Assembly: GCF_000009705.1 (NCBI RefSeq) | Contig: NC_003272.1 | Location: forward strand, 4,260,001 to 4,292,000 | Length of the DNA stretch: 32,000 nucleotides | Direction: 5' to 3' | DNA from: Nostoc sp. PCC 7120 = FACHB-418 | Lineage (GTDB): Bacteria; Cyanobacteriota; Cyanobacteriia; Cyanobacteriales; Nostocaceae | Shown here: one piece after another, positions 10,537-22,390 of the stretch | How positions within the stretch are numbered: the stretch's first letter is position 1 | Layout of the letters: each line of letters opens with the position of its first letter | Notes under the pieces: generated by a model | Databases searched by the model: none | Told to the model about the DNA's origin: nothing | Seen by the model: the letters and a program-made list of their open reading frames with translations, nothing else | Translations under genes and position numbers: made by a program

Positions 10537-10770
10537 ATGAGTATTACAGTCACAGGCAAAATCGAACGCCGTAATCTTGGTACTGGCGCATGGGCGCTAG
10601 TCTCAGATGACGGCGTTACTTACGAAATTCTCAGAGGCGCGGACAAAGAATTACTCAAGGCTGGACAAAAAGCCAAGGTAAAAGGACAGGTACGCGAAGA
10701 TGTCATGACTATCGCCATGATTGGCCCTGTCCTAGAGGTGAAATCTTTTGAAGTTCTAAGTGATGAGTAA
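10537..10770 (+). CDS. Small hypothetical protein
   Basis: 77-aa ORF with a balanced composition. No SD sequence and no motif recognised. Confidence 0.45.
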   Translation: MSITVTGKIERRNLGTGAWALVSDDGVTYEILRGADKELLKAGQKAKVKGQVREDVMTIAMIGPVLEVKSFEVLSDE

Positions 10771-10828: not shown

Positions 10829-11146
10829 CTAACTACTACTGGAATCAAGAACCTGCTGTAGACGAGTTCTAAATTCACCTTTGGGATGACCTCCTTTAAC
10901 TTCACCTTTGATGTTGAATTCTCCTTCGGGAGACTCGCAGATAATATAAGTAGGCCATCCCATTTCGGATTTATCGGGATACTGAGTCAGCAAAATCTTG
11001 CGATACTTGCGATAAGTCGCCGTATCCTGCATTTTGACATCAATAAATTGTAAGCCCAGTTCTTCAGCCACTTTTTGGTCATAGAAAGCCATTTTGTGGC
11101 AGATGCCGCACTCTTCGGAGGAAAACTTAATGACAGCTAAACTCAT
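10829..11146 (-). CDS. Thioredoxin-fold protein (CxxC)
   Basis: 105 aa. CGIC redox motif near the N-terminus (SSEECGICHKM). Size and pattern fit a thioredoxin-like protein. Confidence 0.7.
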   Translation of the reverse strand: MSLAVIKFSSEECGICHKMAFYDQKVAEELGLQFIDVKMQDTATYRKYRKILLTQYPDKSEMGWPTYIICESPEGEFNIKGEVKGGHPKGEFRTRLQQVLDSSSS

Positions 11147-11423
11147 GTAGCTCTGTGTCTCTTGTTGATGTAGCCAATATTCTTCAGCATAGCGCTTAGG
11201 CTACAGACATTAAACTGTTATAGGTGTAAAAGTAAAATTTCTAGAGAAAAATTAAAATTTTGAGAGAATCTAGACATGAGCGCCTAGATATGCTCTCTCT
11301 GCACAAAAATCATAACTACTTGTGAACTAACATATAGAAATCAACTAGATTGATGGTAGAGTATACCAACGCATCACTCAAATAGGGTATTTTCTATCAA
11401 ATTCTAGAGCGATCGCAGTCGCA

Positions 11424-11466: not shown

Positions 11467-11643
11467 AATTGAAAAATAACAAAAGTAAGTTATAATTCCT
11501 AAGACTCAAGAAATTCTGGTCAAAAGATGGTGACATTCATCCCAATAGTACTCCATCCGCGCTAGAATATAACTCCAATCTTGAGCTAAACTGTAGCCCT
11601 AAGCAACTACCAATCCATAGGGCAAGCAACCTAAAGGTTGATG

Positions 11644-11766
11644 AAAAAAAGCTCCTACTTACTTTAACCAAACAGGGAAGTTAGTTATCAAGGTGCATCT
11701 ACCAATCACCAGTTAGTCTTAACCAAACTAGGGAGTTAGTTATTGAGGTGCATCTACCAATTAATT
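11644..11766 (-). ncRNA. nsiR1: NsiR1-like dimer: two diverged bodies (11711-11766 and 11644-11710) behind one TCCGGA promoter (11789-11794)
   Basis: Both bodies keep the GGTAGATGCACC core. The upstream body has a 6-bp hairpin and no U tract. The downstream body has no promoter of its own and ends in U7 (A7 at 11644-11650 on the plus strand). Confidence 0.6.
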
Positions 11767-11832
11767 GTTCTATTTTGAATTACAGTCTTCCGGATAAATT
11801 GCATCAAAGGTATGCTGTGGTTCATTTCCAAT

Positions 11833-11898
11833 AAAAAACCCCTAGTGGTGGCAGCCAACTAGGGGAGTTAGTTATCAGGGTGCATCTACCAATTAATT
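11833..11898 (-). ncRNA. nsiR1: NsiR1 copy (diverged terminator loop)
   Basis: TCCGGA at 11921-11926, 22 nt, then AATTAATTGGTAGATGCACCCTGATAACTAACTCCCCTAGTTGGCTGCCACCACTAGGGG + U6. Confidence 0.8.
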
Positions 11899-11960
11899 GT
11901 TCTCTGATTCAACAGGATGTTCCGGATGAAATTGTCACAAATGAAGTTGCTTTTTTTTAC

Positions 11961-12029
11961 AAAAAAAGCCCTTACAAGTGGCAGCCACTGGGGAGAGTTA
12001 TTTATTAGGGTACGTTCATCAAAATAATC
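11961..12029 (-). pseudogene. Degenerate NsiR1-like unit (no TCCGGA, core mutated)
   Basis: The A7 + gcccttacaagtggcagccactgggg terminator-like part is retained. The body reads gggtacgttcatcaaaataatc instead of gggtgcatctaccaattaattg. It abuts a T8-AC-A7 palindrome (11949-11969). Confidence 0.55.
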
Positions 12030-12097
12030 GGTTTTCCATCAGCAATCAGATATTTTCAACAATCTTATGATCAAAGAAGTTACTGATTGCTAAACAT

Positions 12098-12166
12098 AAA
12101 AAAAGCCCCCAGTCGGTGTTAGCCAGCTAGGGGAGTTAGTTATCAGGGTGCATCTACCAATTAATT
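12098..12166 (-). ncRNA. nsiR1: NsiR1 copy (consensus body)
   Basis: TCCGGA at 12189-12194, 22-nt spacer, 62-nt consensus body, hairpin CCCCTAGCTGG/CCGACTGGGGG, U7. The unit 12098-12230 is identical to 12628-12760. Confidence 0.85.
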
Positions 12167-12230
12167 GTTCTACCCATATTCACTCAATTCCGGATGAATC
12201 TGCACGATTATGCTGGCTATTTATGAACAT

Positions 12231-12299
12231 AAAAAAAGCCCCCAGTCGGTGTTAGCCAGCTAGGGGAGTTAGTTATCAGGGTGCATCTACCAATTAATT
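12231..12299 (-). ncRNA. nsiR1: NsiR1 copy (consensus body)
   Basis: TCCGGA at 12322-12327. Identical body. U7. Confidence 0.85.
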
Positions 12300-12363
12300 G
12301 TTCTATCCATATTCACTCAATTCCGGATGAATCTGCACAATGATGCTGGTTATTTATGAACAT

Positions 12364-12431
12364 AAAAAAGCCCCCAGTCGGTGTTAGCCAGCTAGGGGAG
12401 TTAGTTATCAGGGTGCATCTACCAATTAATT
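12364..12431 (-). ncRNA. nsiR1: NsiR1 copy (consensus body, U6 tail)
   Basis: TCCGGA at 12454-12459. Identical body. A6 tract at 12364-12369. Confidence 0.85.
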
Positions 12432-12495
12432 GTTCTATCCATATTCACTCAATTCCGGATGAATCTGCACAATGATGCTGGTTATTTATGAACAT

Positions 12496-12563
12496 AAAAA
12501 AGCCCCCAGTCGGTGTTAGCCAGCTAGGGGAGTTAGTTATCAGGGTGCATCTACCAATTAATT
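12496..12563 (-). ncRNA. nsiR1: NsiR1 copy (consensus body, U6 tail)
   Basis: TCCGGA at 12586-12591. Identical body. A6 tract at 12496-12501. Confidence 0.85.
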
Positions 12564-12627
12564 GTTCTATCCATATTCACTCAATTCCGGATGAATCTGC
12601 ACGATTATGCTGGTTATTTATGAACAT

Positions 12628-12696
12628 AAAAAAAGCCCCCAGTCGGTGTTAGCCAGCTAGGGGAGTTAGTTATCAGGGTGCATCTACCAATTAATT
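12628..12696 (-). ncRNA. nsiR1: NsiR1 copy (consensus body)
   Basis: TCCGGA at 12719-12724. Identical body. U7. Confidence 0.85.
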
Positions 12697-12760
12697 GTTC
12701 TACCCATATTCACTCAATTCCGGATGAATCTGCACGATTATGCTGGCTATTTATGAACAT

Positions 12761-12829
12761 AAAAAAAGCCCCCAGTCGGTGTTAGCCAGCTAGGGGAGTT
12801 AGTTATCAGGGTGCATCTACCAATTAATT
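12761..12829 (-). ncRNA. nsiR1: NsiR1 copy (consensus body)
   Basis: TCCGGA at 12852-12857. Identical body. U7. Confidence 0.85.
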
Positions 12830-12893
12830 GTTCTATCCATATTCACTCAATTCCGGATGAATCTGCACGATTATGCTGGCTATTTATGAACAT

Positions 12894-12962
12894 AAAAAAA
12901 GCCCCCAGTCGGTGTTAGCCAGCTAGGGGAGTTAGTTATCAGGGTGCATCTACCAATTAATT
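12894..12962 (-). ncRNA. nsiR1: NsiR1 copy (consensus body)
   Basis: TCCGGA at 12985-12990. Identical body. U7. The upstream flank diverges after 13012. Confidence 0.85.
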
Positions 12963-13027
12963 GTTCTATCCATATTCACTCAATTCCGGATGAATCTGCA
13001 CAATGATGCTGGTTACTCGGTAATCAT

Positions 13028-13075
13028 AAAAAATCCCTAGTCCATATTTGCAAACTAGGAAATTAATGATGAGAC
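13028..13075 (-). pseudogene. Degenerate NsiR1-like remnant (terminator-like hairpin only)
   Basis: A6 + tccctagtccatatttgcaaactagga keeps a CTAG-containing hairpin. The GGTAGATGCACC core and TCCGGA are both absent. Confidence 0.45.
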
Positions 13076-13183
13076 TTTTTTACAAGTTAGACAAAATACT
13101 TATTCATTAAGGTCTGTCTTAGGGAATTGGTAAATTTTCCCTGCCCAAGACAGTAGAATAATCTAAGTATATGCTAGTTATAG

Positions 13184-13250
13184 AAAAAACCCCCAGTGGC
13201 TATCAACCAACTAGGGGAGTTAAAGATCAAGGTGCATCTACCGTTAAACT
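13184..13250 (-). ncRNA. nsiR1: NsiR1 copy proximal to hetF (diverged; probably the published NsiR1.1)
   Basis: TCCGGA at 13273-13278, 22 nt, then AGTTTAACGGTAGATGCACCTTGATCTTTAACTCCCCTAGTTGGTTGATAGCCACTGGGGG + U6. The promoter motif lies ~100 nt from the first possible hetF start codon, on the opposite strand. Confidence 0.8.
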
Positions 13251-13379
13251 GTTCTGGGCAGATGCTAACCAATCCGGATAAAGTTGTAGATGTAGAACCA
13301 GCAAAACCTTTGAGTGGAGAAACATTCAATGGCTTGCTGCATCTAGATTTACAGAAAAAATGGAAATCGAATTGAAACT

Positions 13380-15908
13380 TTGGCGTTTCAAGCTAGATTT
13401 AGGAGGCAGATAGGAGAAGTTGTGTCCCAGGAATTTCACATTTCTGTAACCCCAGTAGGGCAGAATGACTACTTGGTGCGGACGGAAGAAGTCGCGCCTG
13501 GGGTACCTTTGGCAGAAGAACTGGTGACATGGCCTGTAGCTGATTGGTTGGCGGCGGCTGGGCATTTGATGAATGACCCATTGAAATCAGTTTTACAGGG
13601 AGATGCGTTTCTTTCTATGGGGCGGGAAAGTGCGATCGCCCGCAACTCTGTTAATTTAGTAGCATTAGGTCAACAACTTTATAATGCACTGTTTCAAGGT
13701 ACTCTCAGAGATAGCTTGATTACAGCCCAAGGTATTGCTCAAAACCACCAACAAGTACTACGTTTACGGTTAGGTCTCAAGGATACTAGGTTAGCACGTC
13801 TGCCGTGGGAAGTGATGCACGCAGGCGATCGCCCCCTAGCAACAGGCCCTTATATTGCTTTCTCTCGTTACCAAAGCGGGATTTCACCCGTGTCTCGTTT
13901 GTCTTCGTCCAACAGACTCAAGCTGTCAGAAGATGGCGTTGTGAGAGTTTTAATGATCCTCGCATCACCCACAGATCAAGCAAGTTTGGAGCTACTGAAA
14001 CAAGAATCTATTCGACTGCAAGCAGAACTGCATCGTCAGCTACCCAGATCAATCGAAGGTGGTAATTATCTCCCAGAAATTGATCTCACCCTACTCAACC
14101 AGCCAGGGAGAGAAGAAGTAACCCAGGCTTTAGAACAAGGAAGATATCATGTTTTACACTACTCCGGTCATAGCAATTTAGGCGCGAACGGGGGTGAAAT
14201 TTATTTGGTCAGTAGCCGGACTGGCTTAACAGAAACCCTCTGTGGCGACGATTTAGCGGGTTTGTTGGTTAACAATAATATCCAAATGGCGGTGTTTAAC
14301 TCCTGTTGGGGTACCTACACCGCGAGCTTTGATAATAGTGGTGACACAGGAGAACGCAACCTTACAGATAGCTTAGTTAAGCGGGGTATTCAAAGCGTTT
14401 TGGCAATGTCGGAACGTATTCCTGATGAAGTGGCGCTGACTCTCACACAATTGTTTTATCGAAATTTGAGTCAAGGATATCCTGTAGATTTATGTGTGAG
14501 TCGGGTACGTCAGGGATTAATTTCTGCCTATGGTTCACACCAGCTTTACTGGGCATTACCAATTTTATATCTCCAACCGGAATTTGACGGTTTCCTTAAC
14601 CCTAGAGTTTCTGCGGCTACAAGTGTTGGTTCGCTGGATGAATATAGTTCATCTTTAGCAGCAAATACCGCATCTACTTACTCTGGTGTGCTGGATGATG
14701 GGGAAATGTCTTTACCGATTGAGGATATGATCCCCTCTGCTTTGGTGCATGACTCTTCAGGAGTGGACTGGTTAGGGGAAGAAACTTGGGGCGATCTCGT
14801 GGATGAGATTGAGTATGATGACCCAAGTTATGCAGAAGATTCGGCTTTTGTTTCTGATATATTTCGCCAACTAGATCAGCAAAGTATAGGTGATGAAGAA
14901 CCTGAAGTACCTCCAGAAGTTGGAAAATCTTTGCAAGGTAGTCATCTAGAACGGCCAATTGCGACTGCACCACGGGAAGATTTCTCCAGGATTCCACCTC
15001 CCGCAACTAATCATACTGCTCAAAACCTGAACCAAGACTTAGAAAATTTCCGCCTTCTTGCATCGAGAAATCGTGTCCGTCGCAAGCGTTGGCAGATTTT
15101 CGGGATGATTGGGCTGGGTGCGATCGCCACTATACTGATTTTTAGTTGGTGGCAAAGTCGCCAGACAACAGTAGTACGCGACATACCCCCCATTCCCAAC
15201 CCATCATTACCCGTGGAGACTCAGCCCCCAACAGATTTACGGGAAATGTCTACGGGAATGGTGACAGCTACAGCTACAGAAAAATTGAATCAAGGTGATT
15301 TAGATTCTGGACTAGCAGCTGTAGAAGAATTACTCAATCGCAACGCACTACAACCTGCCCAAACAGCATTACAATTAATTCCTTCCAATCAAGAAAAACA
15401 GGCATCAGTTAACTTCCTCAAAGGAAGATTAGCTTGGCAGTCTATCCAAACGGGAGATAAAAAATACAGTATTGATGATGCCCGTCGTTATTGGGAAATA
15501 GCGGTGAAAGCTAACCCAAACTCACTTTTATATACCAATGCTTTAGGGTTTGCTTATTATGCTGAGGGTAATATCAATCGAGCCAATGACTCTTGGTTTC
15601 AAGCATTAAATCTAGCACTAGAGCAAGAGAGCGCTGCTGATACTGTCGAAATTTCCCCTACCGCAGATGTGCCGATTGAGGCTTTACCGGCATATGCTGG
15701 TTTAGCATTGGGGATGTATAAAAATGCCCGTGATTTACCTCCCGATAAGCAGGCGCAATATATGAATGAAGCCCTCAAATTGCGGCAAACAGTTTTAGAA
15801 AAAGATCCCATCAATTTTCAGCTAGACGAATTGAGCAAAAATTGGCTATGGACAGAAAATAGTCTACGAGACTGGCGATCGCTTCTGCAACAAAAAAGCC
15901 CCAAGTAG
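13380..15908 (+). CDS. hetF: HetF, CHAT-domain (caspase-like) protease required for heterocyst differentiation. N-terminal CHAT domain, one TM segment, C-terminal TPR-like region.
   Basis: Caspase-hemoglobinase dyad contexts: HVLHYSGHS (His codon 14169-14171) and AVFNSCWG (Cys codon 14304-14306). TM segment WQIFGMIGLGAIATILIFSWW. Location directly next to the NsiR1 array. Start is uncertain: TTG 13380, GTG 13422 (GGAG 5 nt upstream) or ATG 13569. Confidence 0.88.
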   Translation: MAFQARFRRQIGEVVSQEFHISVTPVGQNDYLVRTEEVAPGVPLAEELVTWPVADWLAAAGHLMNDPLKSVLQGDAFLSMGRESAIARNSVNLVALGQQLYNALFQGTLRDSLITAQGIAQNHQQVLRLRLGLKDTRLARLPWEVMHAGDRPLATGPYIAFSRYQSGISPVSRLSSSNRLKLSEDGVVRVLMILASPTDQASLELLKQESIRLQAELHRQLPRSIEGGNYLPEIDLTLLNQPGREEVTQALEQGRYHVLHYSGHSNLGANGGEIYLVSSRTGLTETLCGDDLAGLLVNNNIQMAVFNSCWGTYTASFDNSGDTGERNLTDSLVKRGIQSVLAMSERIPDEVALTLTQLFYRNLSQGYPVDLCVSRVRQGLISAYGSHQLYWALPILYLQPEFDGFLNPRVSAATSVGSLDEYSSSLAANTASTYSGVLDDGEMSLPIEDMIPSALVHDSSGVDWLGEETWGDLVDEIEYDDPSYAEDSAFVSDIFRQLDQQSIGDEEPEVPPEVGKSLQGSHLERPIATAPREDFSRIPPPATNHTAQNLNQDLENFRLLASRNRVRRKRWQIFGMIGLGAIATILIFSWWQSRQTTVVRDIPPIPNPSLPVETQPPTDLREMSTGMVTATATEKLNQGDLDSGLAAVEELLNRNALQPAQTALQLIPSNQEKQASVNFLKGRLAWQSIQTGDKKYSIDDARRYWEIAVKANPNSLLYTNALGFAYYAEGNINRANDSWFQALNLALEQESAADTVEISPTADVPIEALPAYAGLALGMYKNARDLPPDKQAQYMNEALKLRQTVLEKDPINFQLDELSKNWLWTENSLRDWRSLLQQKSPK

Positions 15909-20737: not shown

Positions 20738-22390
20738 TTAGGAGAAATTAGGAAGTAAGTTTTTTTCCAAATGGGTGAGTAATTTCACACCAAATTCTGC
20801 TTCAAAGACTGCTTTTTTGTAGTCTAAACTCCAGAGTTCTAAGGCGCAATTATCATCGGGTCGAGATGGATAGATGAGCAAATTAAACTGCTGGAAGTGG
20901 TGATAATAATCACATTTGATTTGAGCGATCGCTCCAATTTGTCGCCGATCTAATGCTACTGCCAATCTTAACAGCGCACTTAATTGGCTCACGGCTTGCC
21001 GATGCTCTTTACTCAACAGGTTCCGGAAATTTTCATGCTTTTTCTTGGGTGGTGATTTGCGGTGATACCGGGCTAAATTGGCAATGATTTCGATCTCGGT
21101 TTCGTTGTAACCGAGTAGTTCACTATTGCGAATGAGATAGTAGGAATGTTTGTGGTGGGATGAATGGCTGACATGATGACCGCAGTTGTGTAAAATTGCC
21201 GCCGCCCAAAGTAATCGCCGTTCGTTGCTGCCCCAGTGGTGTAGTAGTCCTTGGGTTTGGTCAAATAAACTCAGGGCAAATGTAGCTACGCGATCGCTAT
21301 ACTCTAAGTTAACTTGATACTTACTTGCTTGTTTAAGGACACTACGCTGGCGAATCGAACTTTGAAACCGCAATCTGTCTTCAATTAAGCCGTGGCTTAA
21401 CATCCAGTCAACAATTACCCCTTCCCGTAGTGCGCGACCACAAGCGGTTAATGACTCCACACCCAACAGGGTCATGGCTTCTTGTAAGATGACAGCGCCG
21501 GCGAGTATGACTTCAGAGCGTTTTTCGGGCATTCCGGGGATAGCGGCTCTTTCGGCATTTGTCATTCTCCGCAGGCGATTTACCCACTCTCGCAAGTCTT
21601 TGAGAGTGAATTGATAGCCGTTGAGGGTAGAAGGGACTGTACCAGATTTTTCCCGCGCATGAATCATAGCGATGGTTTCAATAGTGCCAGAAGTGCCAAT
21701 TAAACGGGGAGATTCGCCAAAATTCAGGTTAGCTAGCACTTCCTCTACAGAACGTTCTAACATTCCCCTGGCATAGGCTTGCAGGTATTGAAACTCAATA
21801 TTGCTGATGGGATCTGTGGTGATTAACTCGCTCGTGAGTCGTACCGCACCAACTTTGGTGCTGGTGAGGGTGCGAGGTTCTTGAGTATCACCTAAAATCA
21901 ACTCCGTAGAACCACCACCAATATCAATAATCAGGTGCGGTTGGTTATGAAATTCCATCCCCGACAAAACACCAAGGTAAATGCGTCGTGCTTCTTCTTG
22001 ACCAGAAATCAAGTCAACGCTTAAACCCAATTCCGTTTCTATCTGGTGTAAAAAATCTTTACCATTGGGCGCTTCCCGCACCGCACTAGTCGCCACAGCA
22101 ATTAATGTTTCCGCGTTGGCAGTTTTGGCAACTTCTTGAAAGCGCTTCAACGTAGCGATCGCTTTTGCCATGACCTCTGGTTTTAACTCCCCAGTGGCAA
22201 TATTGCGATCGCCCAGTCGCACGGTTTCTTTTTCTCTGGAAACAATGCTAAAAGCTGGTAGTGTCGGGTCAATCTTTACCACTACCATGTGCAGAGAATT
22301 GGTTCCCATGTCAATGGCAGCAATAATCCGGTGTTGCTGAACTGGTTGAGTGCTGACACTCTCCCAGCTAGATGAAACTAAATTCACCAT
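20738..22390 (-). CDS. ppx: Exopolyphosphatase / guanosine pentaphosphate phosphohydrolase (Ppx/GppA) with a C-terminal HD domain
   Basis: 550 aa. ASKHA-fold motifs IAAIDMGTNSLHMVV and IIDIGGGSTELI. HD region LHNCGHHVSHSSHHKHSYYLI. Confidence 0.9.
   Translation of the reverse strand: MVNLVSSSWESVSTQPVQQHRIIAAIDMGTNSLHMVVVKIDPTLPAFSIVSREKETVRLGDRNIATGELKPEVMAKAIATLKRFQEVAKTANAETLIAVATSAVREAPNGKDFLHQIETELGLSVDLISGQEEARRIYLGVLSGMEFHNQPHLIIDIGGGSTELILGDTQEPRTLTSTKVGAVRLTSELITTDPISNIEFQYLQAYARGMLERSVEEVLANLNFGESPRLIGTSGTIETIAMIHAREKSGTVPSTLNGYQFTLKDLREWVNRLRRMTNAERAAIPGMPEKRSEVILAGAVILQEAMTLLGVESLTACGRALREGVIVDWMLSHGLIEDRLRFQSSIRQRSVLKQASKYQVNLEYSDRVATFALSLFDQTQGLLHHWGSNERRLLWAAAILHNCGHHVSHSSHHKHSYYLIRNSELLGYNETEIEIIANLARYHRKSPPKKKHENFRNLLSKEHRQAVSQLSALLRLAVALDRRQIGAIAQIKCDYYHHFQQFNLLIYPSRPDDNCALELWSLDYKKAVFEAEFGVKLLTHLEKNLLPNFS

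What the first reader, a model, noticed from the sequence alone, without database searches (positions are those of the whole stretch)
11644..13278. Tandem array of self-contained sRNA transcription units (NsiR1) filling the gap upstream of hetF
Seen in sequence:
- The 2.2-kb ORF-free gap contains about 13 head-to-tail units.
- Ten units have the same minus-strand architecture: TCCGGA, exactly 22 nt, a conserved ~62-nt body (consensus AATTAATTGGTAGATGCACCCTGATAACTAACTCCCCTAGCTGGCTAACACCGACTGGGGGC), then U6-7.
- The 3' half of the body folds into an ~11-bp GC-rich hairpin. The hairpin is kept in the diverged copies (11833, 13184) even though the arms and loop differ.
- The GGTAGATGCACC core is invariant in 11 bodies.

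Established knowledge:
- This matches the published NsiR1 array of Nostoc/Anabaena: about 12 repeats upstream of hetF, each with its own promoter and terminator, expressed early in prospective heterocysts.
- TCCGGA at -35 is the DIF1 motif of heterocyst-specific promoters.

Inference: each unit fires independently, so the array amplifies sRNA dosage. This is by far the most unusual structure in the window, but it is already described.
Basis: partly seen in the sequence, partly recalled or inferred. Interest (0 to 1): 0.85.

Follow-up and report, generated by a model that had tools for sequence, protein, structure and literature searches.

The report
NsiR1 small-RNA gene array beside hetF

Summary
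On the minus strand of 11644-13278 there are 13 NsiR1-like bodies in 12 repeat slots of about 133 nt. Ten reach the Rfam NsiR1 gathering score (44.5-75.6 bits against 39). Ten carry TCCGGA exactly 36 nt upstream of GGTAGATGCACC; no shuffle of the window gives one such match.

The gene on the other strand is hetF (NCBIfam equivalog, 1405.9 bits). Published PCC 7120 NsiR1.1 and NsiR1.4 oligonucleotides match the window base for base. The published layout also fits: 12 copies, copies 3-9 identical, hetF start site 256 nt upstream of the ORF inside repeat 2.

All 80 related hetF loci carry such an array on the opposite strand, with 3-14 copies.

Three corrections:
- The tenth TCCGGA unit has no terminator of its own and runs into a second body.
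- Slots 2 and 10 lack both the promoter motif and the 5' core.

The array does more than raise dosage. The hetF-proximal copy lies antisense to the hetF 5' UTR and is a conserved, distinct subtype.

Verdict: already known; low interest.

The parts
13182..13278 (-). Slot 1 = nsiR1.1. TCCGGA at 13273-13278, CAGAACA -10 region, RNA 13243-13182. Lies fully inside the hetF 5' UTR, antisense to it.
   Evidence: Rfam 58.3 bits; R1 71.9 bits; fold -18.6 kcal/mol; identical to published NsiR1.1 oligo 833; TCCGGA spacing.
13028..13085 (-). Slot 2, a degenerate unit. It keeps a terminator-like hairpin (13034-13061) and a U-run but has no TCCGGA and no GGTAGATGCACC. The hetF promoter lies in this slot.
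   Evidence: Rfam 22.6 bits, below gathering; R1 23.7 bits, E=0.0014; terminator scan; fold; 'TSS of hetF is located in nsiR1.2' (PMC8406250).
12894..12990 (-). Slot 3, NsiR1.4-type unit: TCCGGA 12985-12990, RNA 12955-12894.
   Evidence: Rfam 75.6 bits; identical to published NsiR1.4 oligo 835.
12761..12857 (-). Slot 4, NsiR1.4-type unit.
   Evidence: Rfam 75.6 bits.
12628..12724 (-). Slot 5, NsiR1.4-type unit. Promoter spacer variant GGGTAG.
   Evidence: Rfam 75.6 bits.
12495..12591 (-). Slot 6, NsiR1.4-type unit with a U6 tail.
   Evidence: Rfam 73 bits.
12363..12459 (-). Slot 7, NsiR1.4-type unit with a U6 tail.
   Evidence: Rfam 73 bits.
12231..12327 (-). Slot 8, NsiR1.4-type unit.
   Evidence: Rfam 75.6 bits.
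12098..12194 (-). Slot 9, NsiR1.4-type unit. Last of the seven units with identical RNA bodies.
   Evidence: Rfam 75.6 bits.
11962..12021 (-). Slot 10, a diverged unit. 5' end UGAUGAACGUACCCUAAUAAAUAAC, weak hairpin, U7 tail. No TCCGGA and no AGAACA upstream.
   Evidence: R1 40.9 bits; not reported by Rfam even at E<=10; fold -8.7 kcal/mol, no better than shuffles; counterparts in 10 other genomes.
11831..11926 (-). Slot 11, a complete unit with a diverged hairpin: TCCGGA 11921-11926, RNA 11891-11831.
   Evidence: Rfam 71 bits; fold -16.8 kcal/mol.
11644..11794 (-). Slot 12, a composite unit. TCCGGA 11789-11794, then body 11759-11705 with no U-run, then a second body 11704-11644 with a weak hairpin and U7. 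It would give an RNA of about 116 nt if the first weak hairpin does not terminate.
   Evidence: Rfam 20.4 and 44.5 bits; R1 37.8 and 60.1 bits; sequence; folds; same layout in L001 and L003.
13154..13159 (+). TAGAAT, the likely -10 box of the hetF promoter. The published TSS (-256 from the ORF) maps to about 13166, 7 nt downstream.
   Evidence: Sequence; TSS position from PMC8406250. This mapping is my inference.
13166..13421 (+). hetF 5' UTR (inferred). It contains the full complement of nsiR1.1 and of its promoter.
   Evidence: Duplex energy with NsiR1.1 is -113 kcal/mol and with NsiR1.4 -61.7, against a shuffle mean of -28.
13422..15908 (+). hetF: GTG start, 828 aa, CHAT-domain protease and divisome protein.
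   Evidence: NCBIfam NF045509 equivalog 1405.9 bits; Pfam CHAT; public gene calls of 828 aa.

Best explanation
The region is the nsiR1 locus of Nostoc/Anabaena sp. PCC 7120, or of a near-identical strain. It holds 12 head-to-tail repeat slots of about 133 nt on the strand opposite hetF.

Ten slots carry a heterocyst-specific promoter: TCCGGA at -35 to -30, a 16-nt spacer, then a (T)AGAACA -10 region. Nine of those end in their own intrinsic terminator about 60 nt downstream, so each makes its own ~60-nt NsiR1 RNA starting at UGGUAGAUG.

Proposed sequence of events:
1. After nitrogen step-down, the NtcA/HetR cascade raises the ECF-type sigma factor HetZ in prospective heterocysts. HetZ reads TCCGGA-type promoters.
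2. All intact units then fire in parallel.
3. The seven identical central copies give a high dose of the NsiR1.4 isoform. This pairs with the alr3234 (hetP-like) 5' UTR and start codon and lowers that brake on commitment.
4. The hetF-proximal copy, NsiR1.1, is transcribed from inside the hetF 5' UTR on the other strand. It is perfectly complementary to that UTR and lowers HetF translation.

Shown here:
- the anatomy of the array;
- family membership;
- the identity of hetF;
- the antisense overlap, given the published TSS;
- conservation of the array in 80 genomes;
- the terminator structure.

Taken from the literature: cell-specific expression, the targets and the phenotypes.

Inferred: that sigma-HetZ itself reads these ten promoters.
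For: - **Family.** Ten Rfam NsiR1 hits at or above gathering; 13 hits with the model built here, all minus strand, none elsewhere in the window.
- **Promoter spacing.** TCCGGA-N30-GGTAGATGCACC 10 times, against 0 in shuffles.
- **hetF.** NCBIfam equivalog hit.
- **Identity.** Window sequence identical to published PCC 7120 NsiR1.1 and NsiR1.4 oligos.
- **Layout.** Seven identical central copies, five divergent peripheral slots, hetF TSS in slot 2. All match PMC9045159 and PMC8406250.
- **Conservation.** All 80 of 80 related hetF loci have NsiR1 hits, all but one of 586 on the strand opposite hetF. The proximal copy lies 177-185 nt from the hetF start in 75 of them. A further 280 of 280 covariance-model hits are on that strand.
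- **Promoter logo.** 259 distinct copies give aAaTTTATCCGGA-N17-tAGAACA.TTaAt|TGG. TCCGGA starts 35 nt upstream in 338 of 363. This is the -35 to -30 position reported for sigma-HetZ.
- **Terminator stem.**
  - On the model-fitted alignment 95.8% of cells pair, and four pairs change on both sides.
  - On the independent MAFFT alignment 83% pair.
  - Slid controls pair 26-70%.
- **Subtypes.** All 77 proximal copies have ACCTTGATCTT; 403 of 508 others have ACCCTGATAA.
- **Function.** PMC9045159, PMC4030482, PMC3141674.
Against: - No expression data can be examined here.
The best hetF relative in the species collection is only 93% identical, so 'PCC 7120' rests on oligo identity and layout.
- The -10 region reads TAGA, CAGA or GAGA, not the TGNA of the nine-promoter sigma-HetZ consensus.
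- NsiR1 is not mentioned in the main text of the sigma-HetZ paper.
- Slots 2 and 10 lack the promoter motif, although PMC8406250 says all 12 copies are induced.
- My fold of the hetF 5' UTR with the NsiR1.1 site blocked barely changes Shine-Dalgarno accessibility: 0.60 against 0.56. How binding 180 nt upstream blocks translation is therefore not reproduced here.
- Mutating the nsiR1.1 -10 box had little effect on a hetF transcriptional fusion.
Confidence: 0.95

Rival explanations
1. Pure dosage amplifier. On this view all copies are functionally redundant and the array exists only to raise the amount of one sRNA.
For: Seven copies have identical RNA bodies. Each has its own promoter. Copy number varies from 3 to 14 between genomes, as expected if only the total matters. 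L001, the closest relative, has 6 central copies where the window has 7.
Against: - The proximal copy is a distinct subtype in 77 of 77 genomes.
- Proximal copies are 93% alike across genomes but only 80% like their own array.
- Overexpressing NsiR1.1 or NsiR1.4 gives different phenotypes, and only NsiR1.4 lowers Alr3234 (PMC9045159).
- In 41 of 67 arrays no two bodies are identical.
Confidence: 0.2
2. The array acts mainly in cis on hetF. A cluster of strong heterocyst promoters, one firing head-on into the hetF 5' UTR, would lower hetF transcription by collision, or would act as a local sink for the sigma factor. The RNAs would be by-products.
For: nsiR1.1 and hetF transcription converge over 13182-13243. 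The position of the proximal copy relative to hetF is fixed within a few nt in 75 of 80 genomes. hetF reporter signal falls in mature heterocysts.
Against: - Replacing or deleting the nsiR1.1 -10 box changed a hetF transcriptional fusion very little (PMC8406250).
- NsiR1 expressed from another site, under the trc promoter on plasmid alpha, changes HetR level, commitment time and Alr3234 level. The RNA therefore acts in trans (PMC9045159).
- The RNA body and terminator are conserved, not only the promoters.
Confidence: 0.08
3. A neutral tandem repeat (satellite), a CRISPR-like array or a repeated small ORF, with no RNA-gene function.
For: It is a tandem repeat with a regular period. Mechanical ORFs of 51-59 aa cross it. 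A gene caller placed a 59-aa ORF at 13196-13375.
Against: - The whole unit repeats, with no unique spacers, so it is not CRISPR-like.
- The period of 132-133 nt is not a multiple of 3, so no reading frame can persist across units.
- The ORFs match no protein family.
- Promoter, 5' core and terminator are conserved as separate blocks, with a variable spacer between them, across genomes whose HetF is only 66-70% identical.
Confidence: 0.01

Closest known systems
NsiR1 array of Nostoc/Anabaena sp. PCC 7120 (Rfam RF02399; Ionescu et al. 2010 as cited in PMC4030482; PMC9045159)
   Same: Every feature tested matches:
- position and orientation relative to hetF;
- 12 slots, with seven identical central copies;
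- DIF1 promoters and a ~60-nt RNA with a terminator;
- sequence identity to published NsiR1.1 and NsiR1.4 oligos.
   Different: Nothing substantive. By sequence I count 13 bodies in 12 slots, because the last slot holds two bodies. Two slots have no DIF1 motif. The accessible papers do not spell out either detail.
[quoted passage not shown]
   Same: TCCGGA at -35 to -30, a 16-nt spacer to a non-TATAAT -10 region, T at +1, and heterocyst-specific activity.
   Different: The -10 region here is (T)AGAACA, not TGNA. Direct recognition of PnsiR1 by sigma-HetZ is not reported in the text I could read.
Multicopy 'sibling' sRNAs in other bacteria. Tandem PrrF1/PrrF2 of Pseudomonas aeruginosa, Qrr1-5 of Vibrio and LhrC1-5 of Listeria are named from my own knowledge. 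PMC9045159 names E. coli, P. aeruginosa, B. subtilis and S. meliloti cases in general terms.
   Same: Several homologous sRNA genes, each with its own promoter and terminator, whose effects are partly additive and partly diverged.
   Different: - Those systems have 2-5 copies, against 10-13 here.
- This array is conserved as an array across an order.
- Its copies are cell-type specific.
- One copy doubles as a cis-antisense RNA of the neighbouring gene.
Repeat-encoded RNAs processed from one precursor: CRISPR arrays and ToxI-type antitoxin repeats (own knowledge)
   Same: Tandem repeats that yield many small RNAs.
   Different: Here each unit has its own promoter and terminator, there are no unique spacers, and no processing enzyme is needed.

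Membership tests
Rfam RF02399 NsiR1 | Covariance-model score at or above the curated gathering score (39 bits). | tested here: met
   Ten hits of 44.5-75.6 bits, all full length (model positions 1-60) and all on the minus strand. Two further bodies score below threshold at 22.6 and 20.4 bits.
Rfam RF02399 NsiR1 | Tandem array directly upstream of hetF, transcribed away from it. | tested here: met
   hetF is identified by NCBIfam equivalog NF045509. The array lies 179 nt from the hetF start on the opposite strand. The same arrangement holds in 80 of 80 related loci.
Rfam RF02399 NsiR1 | An RNA of about 60 nt ending in a Rho-independent terminator hairpin and U-run. | tested here: met
   - Folds of -16 to -18.6 kcal/mol for slots 1, 3-9 and 11.
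- Main stem paired in 95.8% of cells on the model-fitted alignment and 83% on the MAFFT alignment, with changes on both sides.
- Slots 10 and 12 are weak.
- Transcript length itself was not measured here.
Rfam RF02399 NsiR1 | Sequence identity with experimentally studied NsiR1.1 and NsiR1.4 of PCC 7120. | tested here: met
   Oligos 833 and 835 in the supplement of PMC9045159 match window 13242-13204 and the central copies exactly.
Rfam RF02399 NsiR1 | HetR- and NtcA-dependent, heterocyst-specific expression early after nitrogen step-down. | not testable with these tools
   Literature only (PMC4030482, PMC9045159).
DIF1 / sigma-HetZ promoter class | TCCGGA at -35 to -30 relative to the transcription start. 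| tested here: met
   All ten units have TCCGGA starting 35 nt upstream of the U of UGGUAG, as do 338 of 363 copies in other genomes. The start site is taken from Rfam and from the published transcripts, not measured here.
DIF1 / sigma-HetZ promoter class | A -10 element TGNA placed 16-17 nt after TCCGGA, then N7-9 and T (consensus of PMC13342950). | tested here: inconclusive
   Spacing and the +1 T fit in 8 of 10 units, but the element reads TAGA (CAGA in slot 1, GAGA in slot 11). No unit matches the strict pattern. AGAACA at -12 to -7 is nearly invariant in 259 copies.
DIF1 / sigma-HetZ promoter class | Transcription depends on HetZ. | not testable with these tools
   Not reported for nsiR1 in the accessible text. 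The supplementary datasets are not held.
cis-antisense RNA of the hetF 5' UTR (NsiR1.1) | The sRNA gene lies inside the transcribed 5' UTR of hetF on the opposite strand. | tested here: met
   The published hetF TSS at -256 maps to about 13166, 7 nt after a TAGAAT. nsiR1.1 at 13182-13243 lies downstream of it. The TSS comes from the literature.
CRISPR array (considered) | Short identical repeats separated by unique spacers of similar length. | tested here: not met
   Whole 132-133-nt units repeat at 98% identity with no unique spacers.

The most novel reading that the evidence does not exclude
The array may be the output arm of a delayed negative feedback loop on the heterocyst sigma factor.

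- Sigma-HetZ reads TCCGGA promoters (PMC13342950), and all ten nsiR1 promoters have that -35 element.
- NsiR1 lowers HetF translation (PMC9045159).
- HetF degrades PatU3 (PMC9457339).
- PatU3 is the proposed anti-sigma factor of HetZ and also ties into cell division.

Together this gives sigma-HetZ -> NsiR1 -| HetF -| PatU3 -| sigma-HetZ. The loop would damp sigma-HetZ and help lock the non-dividing state once NsiR1 has built up.

On this reading the conserved two-class layout serves two arms. One arm is a position-locked cis-antisense copy; the other is a variable block of trans-acting copies. The first acts on hetF and the second on commitment. Neither the HetF-PatU3 paper nor the sigma-HetZ paper mentions NsiR1 in its main text. 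This is an inference from combining papers with the promoter anatomy seen here. It is not a result.
Probability: 0.25. Interest if true: 0.4.

Novelty: already known. Interest (0 to 1): 0.15.

Why it matters
[quoted passage not shown] The locus therefore matters to the field, but it was described in 2010 and its targets were worked out in 2020-2022. This check mainly confirms that the first-stage reader recognised a real, unusual structure from sequence alone.

It also adds several small refinements, based on 80 genomes:
- the exact RNA start;
- two promoter-less slots;
- a composite distal unit;
- a proximal subtype conserved across those genomes.

A practical point for genome users: 12 of 80 public hetF contigs end inside the array, so copy numbers taken from short-read assemblies are unreliable.

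Tried and rejected
- **RNAalifold on the MAFFT alignment of 125 copies.** It returned no structure, because the 3' arms are out of register. I instead named the structure from the reference fold and counted pairs. I then re-aligned the copies with a covariance model.
- **Simple terminator scan.** It flagged only the slot-2 hairpin. The NsiR1 stems have one-base interruptions that its rule excludes, so this is not evidence against terminators.
- **Folding the hetF 5' UTR with and without the NsiR1.1 site blocked.** Shine-Dalgarno accessibility hardly changed, 0.60 against 0.56. The test is inconclusive.
- **Conservation of the hetF promoter.** TAGAAT and its flanks align only in the closest relatives, L001-L004. 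Further out the fixed-offset windows do not align.
- **Viral contigs.**
  - The 18-nt pattern TGGTAGATGCACCYTGAT matched five IMG/VR contigs.
  - The model shows that only a 19-nt stretch at the 5' end matches, with no hairpin.
  - I treat these as chance matches, four of them with identical model alignments, and not as NsiR1.
- **Naming the source genome.** The species collection gave at best 93% HetF identity. Exact-protein look-up of the neighbouring histidine kinase found public contigs with the same gene order but gave no organism names.
- **Papers and supplements not held.** Mitschke et al. 2011 (per-unit start sites) is not held. The datasets of the sigma-HetZ paper are not held.
- **Other TCCGGA sites in the window.** Those at 21022, 29602 and 30349 lack AGAACA at the right spacing.
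- **CRISPR and coding readings.** Both rejected; see the rival explanations.
Full report
**1. What is there**

Read on the minus strand, 13278 down to 11644 is a head-to-tail array. Tandem Repeats Finder reports a 133-nt period, 7.0 copies and 98% matches over 12093-13015.

The Rfam NsiR1 model (RF02399, gathering score 39 bits) gives ten full-length minus-strand hits:

| Hit | Score (bits) |
|---|---|
| 13182-13243 | 58.3 |
| seven hits from 12098-12159 to 12894-12955 | 73-75.6 |
| 11831-11891 | 71 |
| 11644-11704 | 44.5 |

Nothing else in the 32-kb window reaches any Rfam gathering score. At a relaxed threshold two more bodies appear: 13026-13082 (22.6 bits) and 11705-11759 (20.4 bits).

I built a broader covariance model (R1) from 125 diverse copies and ran it over the whole window with filters off. 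It gives 13 hits with E<0.01. All are on the minus strand and all lie within 11646-13243. It adds a hit at 11962-12021 (40.9 bits).

GGTAGATGCACC occurs 11 times, only in the array and only on this strand. TCCGGA occurs 10 times in the array and 3 times in the remaining 30 kb. The composite pattern TCCGGA-N30-GGTAGATGCACC occurs 10 times, against none in 100 shuffles.

**2. Slot structure**

Successive TCCGGA motifs are 288, 133, 133, 133, 132, 132, 133, 268 and 132 nt apart. The array is thus 12 slots of about 133 nt. Slots 2 and 10 have lost TCCGGA.

- **Slots 3-9.** The RNA bodies are identical. The units differ only at a few promoter or spacer positions and in having U6 or U7.
- **Slots 1 and 11.** Both are complete but have diverged hairpins, which still fold at -18.6 and -16.8 kcal/mol.
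- **Slot 2 (13028-13085).** It keeps only a terminator-like hairpin.
- **Slot 10 (11962-12021).** It has a changed 5' end (UGAUGAACGUACCC...) and a weak hairpin.
- **Slot 12.** This slot is composite. A promoter at 11794 drives a body (11759-11705) that has no U-run and runs directly into a second body (11704-11644). That second body has no promoter of its own and only a weak hairpin.

**3. Where the RNA starts**

Rfam's model begins at UGGUAG. The T7 templates used to make NsiR1.1 and NsiR1.4 in vitro begin GGTAGATG (supplement of PMC9045159). The RNA is described as about 60 nt.

With +1 at the U of UGGUAG, TCCGGA occupies -35 to -30. That is exactly the numbering given for the -35 element of the heterocyst sigma factor HetZ (T-35 C-34 C-33 G-32 G-31 A-30; PMC13342950). 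AATTAAT therefore occupies -7 to -1 of the promoter.

A logo of 259 distinct promoter copies from 80 genomes reads aAaTTTATCCGGA, 17 variable bases, tAGAACA.TTaAt, then TGG. AGAACA at -12 to -7 is nearly invariant. This agrees with the report of a conserved, non-TATAAT, AT-rich -10 region in DIF+ promoters (PMC6133370).

It does not match the strict TGNA of the nine-promoter sigma-HetZ consensus. Eight units read TAGA, slot 1 reads CAGA and slot 11 reads GAGA.

**4. Neighbours and identity**

The plus-strand ORF starting with GTG at 13422 (828 aa) is hetF.
- NCBIfam equivalog NF045509 scores 1405.9 bits against a cutoff of 1200.
- Pfam finds a CHAT domain.
- Public gene calls have the same length.

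The published hetF start site, 256 nt upstream of the ORF and 'located in nsiR1.2' (PMC8406250), maps to about 13166. That is 7 nt after a TAGAAT at 13154-13159. The hetF 5' UTR therefore runs across nsiR1.1 (13182-13243) and its promoter on the opposite strand. Directional RNA-seq reported the same overlap (PMC3141674).

Several features match what is published for PCC 7120:
- the window's NsiR1.1 and NsiR1.4 sequences are identical to the published PCC 7120 oligonucleotides;
- there are seven identical central copies;
- there are five divergent peripheral slots;
- the hetF start site falls in slot 2.

The genome collection gave no 100% hetF match; the best was 93%, in Nostoc parmelioides FACHB-3921. 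The strain name is therefore an inference, though a strong one. The window has 32 HIP1 octamers (GCGATCGC) and 42% G+C, which fits a Nostoc genome.

**5. Comparative evidence**

All 80 hetF loci fetched carry NsiR1-like hits directly upstream of hetF, and 585 of the 586 hits are on the opposite strand.
- The 5' end of the proximal copy lies 177-185 nt from the hetF start in 75 loci.
- The 66 arrays not cut by a contig end have 3-14 copies.
- Twelve contigs end inside the array.
- With model R1, 280 of 280 hits in 459 kb are on that strand.

Support for the terminator hairpin:

| Alignment | Cells paired in the main stem | Slid controls | Both-sided changes |
|---|---|---|---|
| Independent MAFFT alignment | 83% | 27-61% | in every stem pair |
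| Model-fitted alignment | 95.8% | 26-70% | in four pairs |

Most of the variation is G-C to G-U or A-U, so covariation is modest but consistent. The 3-bp 5' mini-hairpin never varies, so nothing can be said for or against it.

**6. Two conserved subtypes**

Every proximal copy (77 of 77) has ACCTTGATCTT at positions 11-21. Among the other copies, 403 of 508 have ACCCTGATAA.

Proximal copies from different genomes are 93% alike on average. They are only 80% like the other copies of their own array. Non-proximal copies are about as alike within an array (84.5%) as between arrays (82.8%).

Rank 1 has an exact TCCGGA and an intact core in 77 of 77 genomes. Rank 2 has them in only about half, which fits the hetF promoter sitting in that slot.

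The proximal copy is thus an orthologous, position-locked gene. Its conservation could reflect its own function, the constraint of lying inside the hetF UTR, or both. The difference between the subtypes falls in the single-stranded stretch between the two hairpins. The accessible figure legend says that NsiR1.1 and NsiR1.4 differ at a few positions and that an alr3234-pairing region is marked, but the figure is not held, so I cannot say here whether the two coincide.

Seven identical bodies is at the top of the range seen. In 41 of 67 arrays no two bodies are identical. The nearest relative has six central copies where the window has seven. Both observations point to recent unequal exchange.

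**7. How it works**

Shown by sequence here:
- ten promoters with a fixed -35 and -10 geometry;
- nine with their own terminators;
- a perfect antisense overlap of copy 1 with the hetF UTR, duplex -113 kcal/mol;
- strong partial complementarity of the NsiR1.4 body to the same UTR, -61.7 kcal/mol against a shuffle mean of -28;
- slots 2 and 10 at chance level in the same test.

From the literature:
- PnsiR1 drives expression in single prospective heterocysts before any visible change (PMC4030482).
- NsiR1.1 inhibits hetF translation.
- NsiR1.4 binds the alr3234 5' UTR across the start codon and lowers Alr3234.
- Overexpressing NsiR1.4 advances commitment by about 3 h, and depleting NsiR1 delays it (PMC9045159).

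Inferred: that sigma-HetZ is the factor reading these promoters. It is shown for other TCCGGA promoters, but I found no statement for nsiR1.

Not reproduced: how pairing about 180 nt upstream of the start codon blocks translation. My constrained fold shows almost no change at the Shine-Dalgarno site.

A cis transcriptional-interference role is disfavoured. Mutating the nsiR1.1 -10 box had little effect on a hetF transcriptional fusion, and ectopically expressed NsiR1 acts in trans.

**8. Verdict**

It is the published NsiR1 array, so it is already known.

The comparative details are incremental. The feedback loop suggested by combining the HetF-PatU3 and sigma-HetZ papers with this promoter anatomy is a hypothesis only.

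Noticed in passing
window 11962-12090 (minus); also L001, L003, L005, L006, L007, L010, L018, L019, L066, L080: The slot-10 variant (5' end GATGAACGTACCCTAATAAATAAC, no TCCGGA or AGAACA) has counterparts in 10 other genomes. They share the upstream sequence CAGTAACTCC.TTGAT ... TACTGATTG. In four of them a one-mismatch TCCGGA sits 39 nt upstream instead of 35. It could be an old decayed copy or a variant with its own regulation. The simple promoter scan did not flag a sigma-70-type site there.
   Followed up: partly
window 13114-13159 (plus): An inverted repeat, CTGTCTTAGG / CCCAAGACAG (13114-13123 and 13144-13153, 20 nt apart), lies immediately upstream of the likely hetF -10 box TAGAAT and spans the -35 region. 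The stretch is conserved in the closest relatives L001 and L002. It may be an operator of the hetF promoter.
   Followed up: partly
L002, L008, L013, L017, L020, L021, L023, L033, L035, L052, L057, L059; also L082, L083: Twelve of 80 public hetF contigs end inside the NsiR1 array. Contigs of near-identical strains stop about 360 nt upstream of the fetched stretch. Short-read assemblies break at this repeat, so published copy numbers from drafts are probably too low.
   Followed up: partly
window 13196-13375 (plus): Automated gene calls in public assemblies place a 59-aa ORF here, inside the hetF 5' UTR and overlapping nsiR1.1. It matches no NCBIfam family. It is probably a spurious call.
   Followed up: partly
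window 11600-11640 (minus): Just beyond the last terminator the sequence GGATTGGTAGTTGCTTAGGG resembles the NsiR1 5' core ATTGGTAGATGC with one mismatch. The model does not report it. It may be the vestige of a further unit.
   Followed up: partly
window 11228-11268 and 10626-10669: Two short two-copy tandem repeats (periods 20 and 23) lie between the array and the flanking ORFs. The first lies upstream of the 105-aa minus-strand ORF 10829-11146, which has no family match.
   Followed up: no
whole window: There are 32 copies of the HIP1 octamer GCGATCGC in 32 kb at 42% G+C. From my own knowledge, this is typical of cyanobacterial genomes.
   Followed up: no
L086-L090 (IMG/VR contigs): Five viral contigs contain the 19-nt string TGGTAGATGCACCTTGATA, identical to the 5' end of 1.1-type NsiR1 copies (window NsiR1.1 itself begins CGG), but no hairpin follows. 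Four give identical model alignments. I judged this a chance match.
   Followed up: partly
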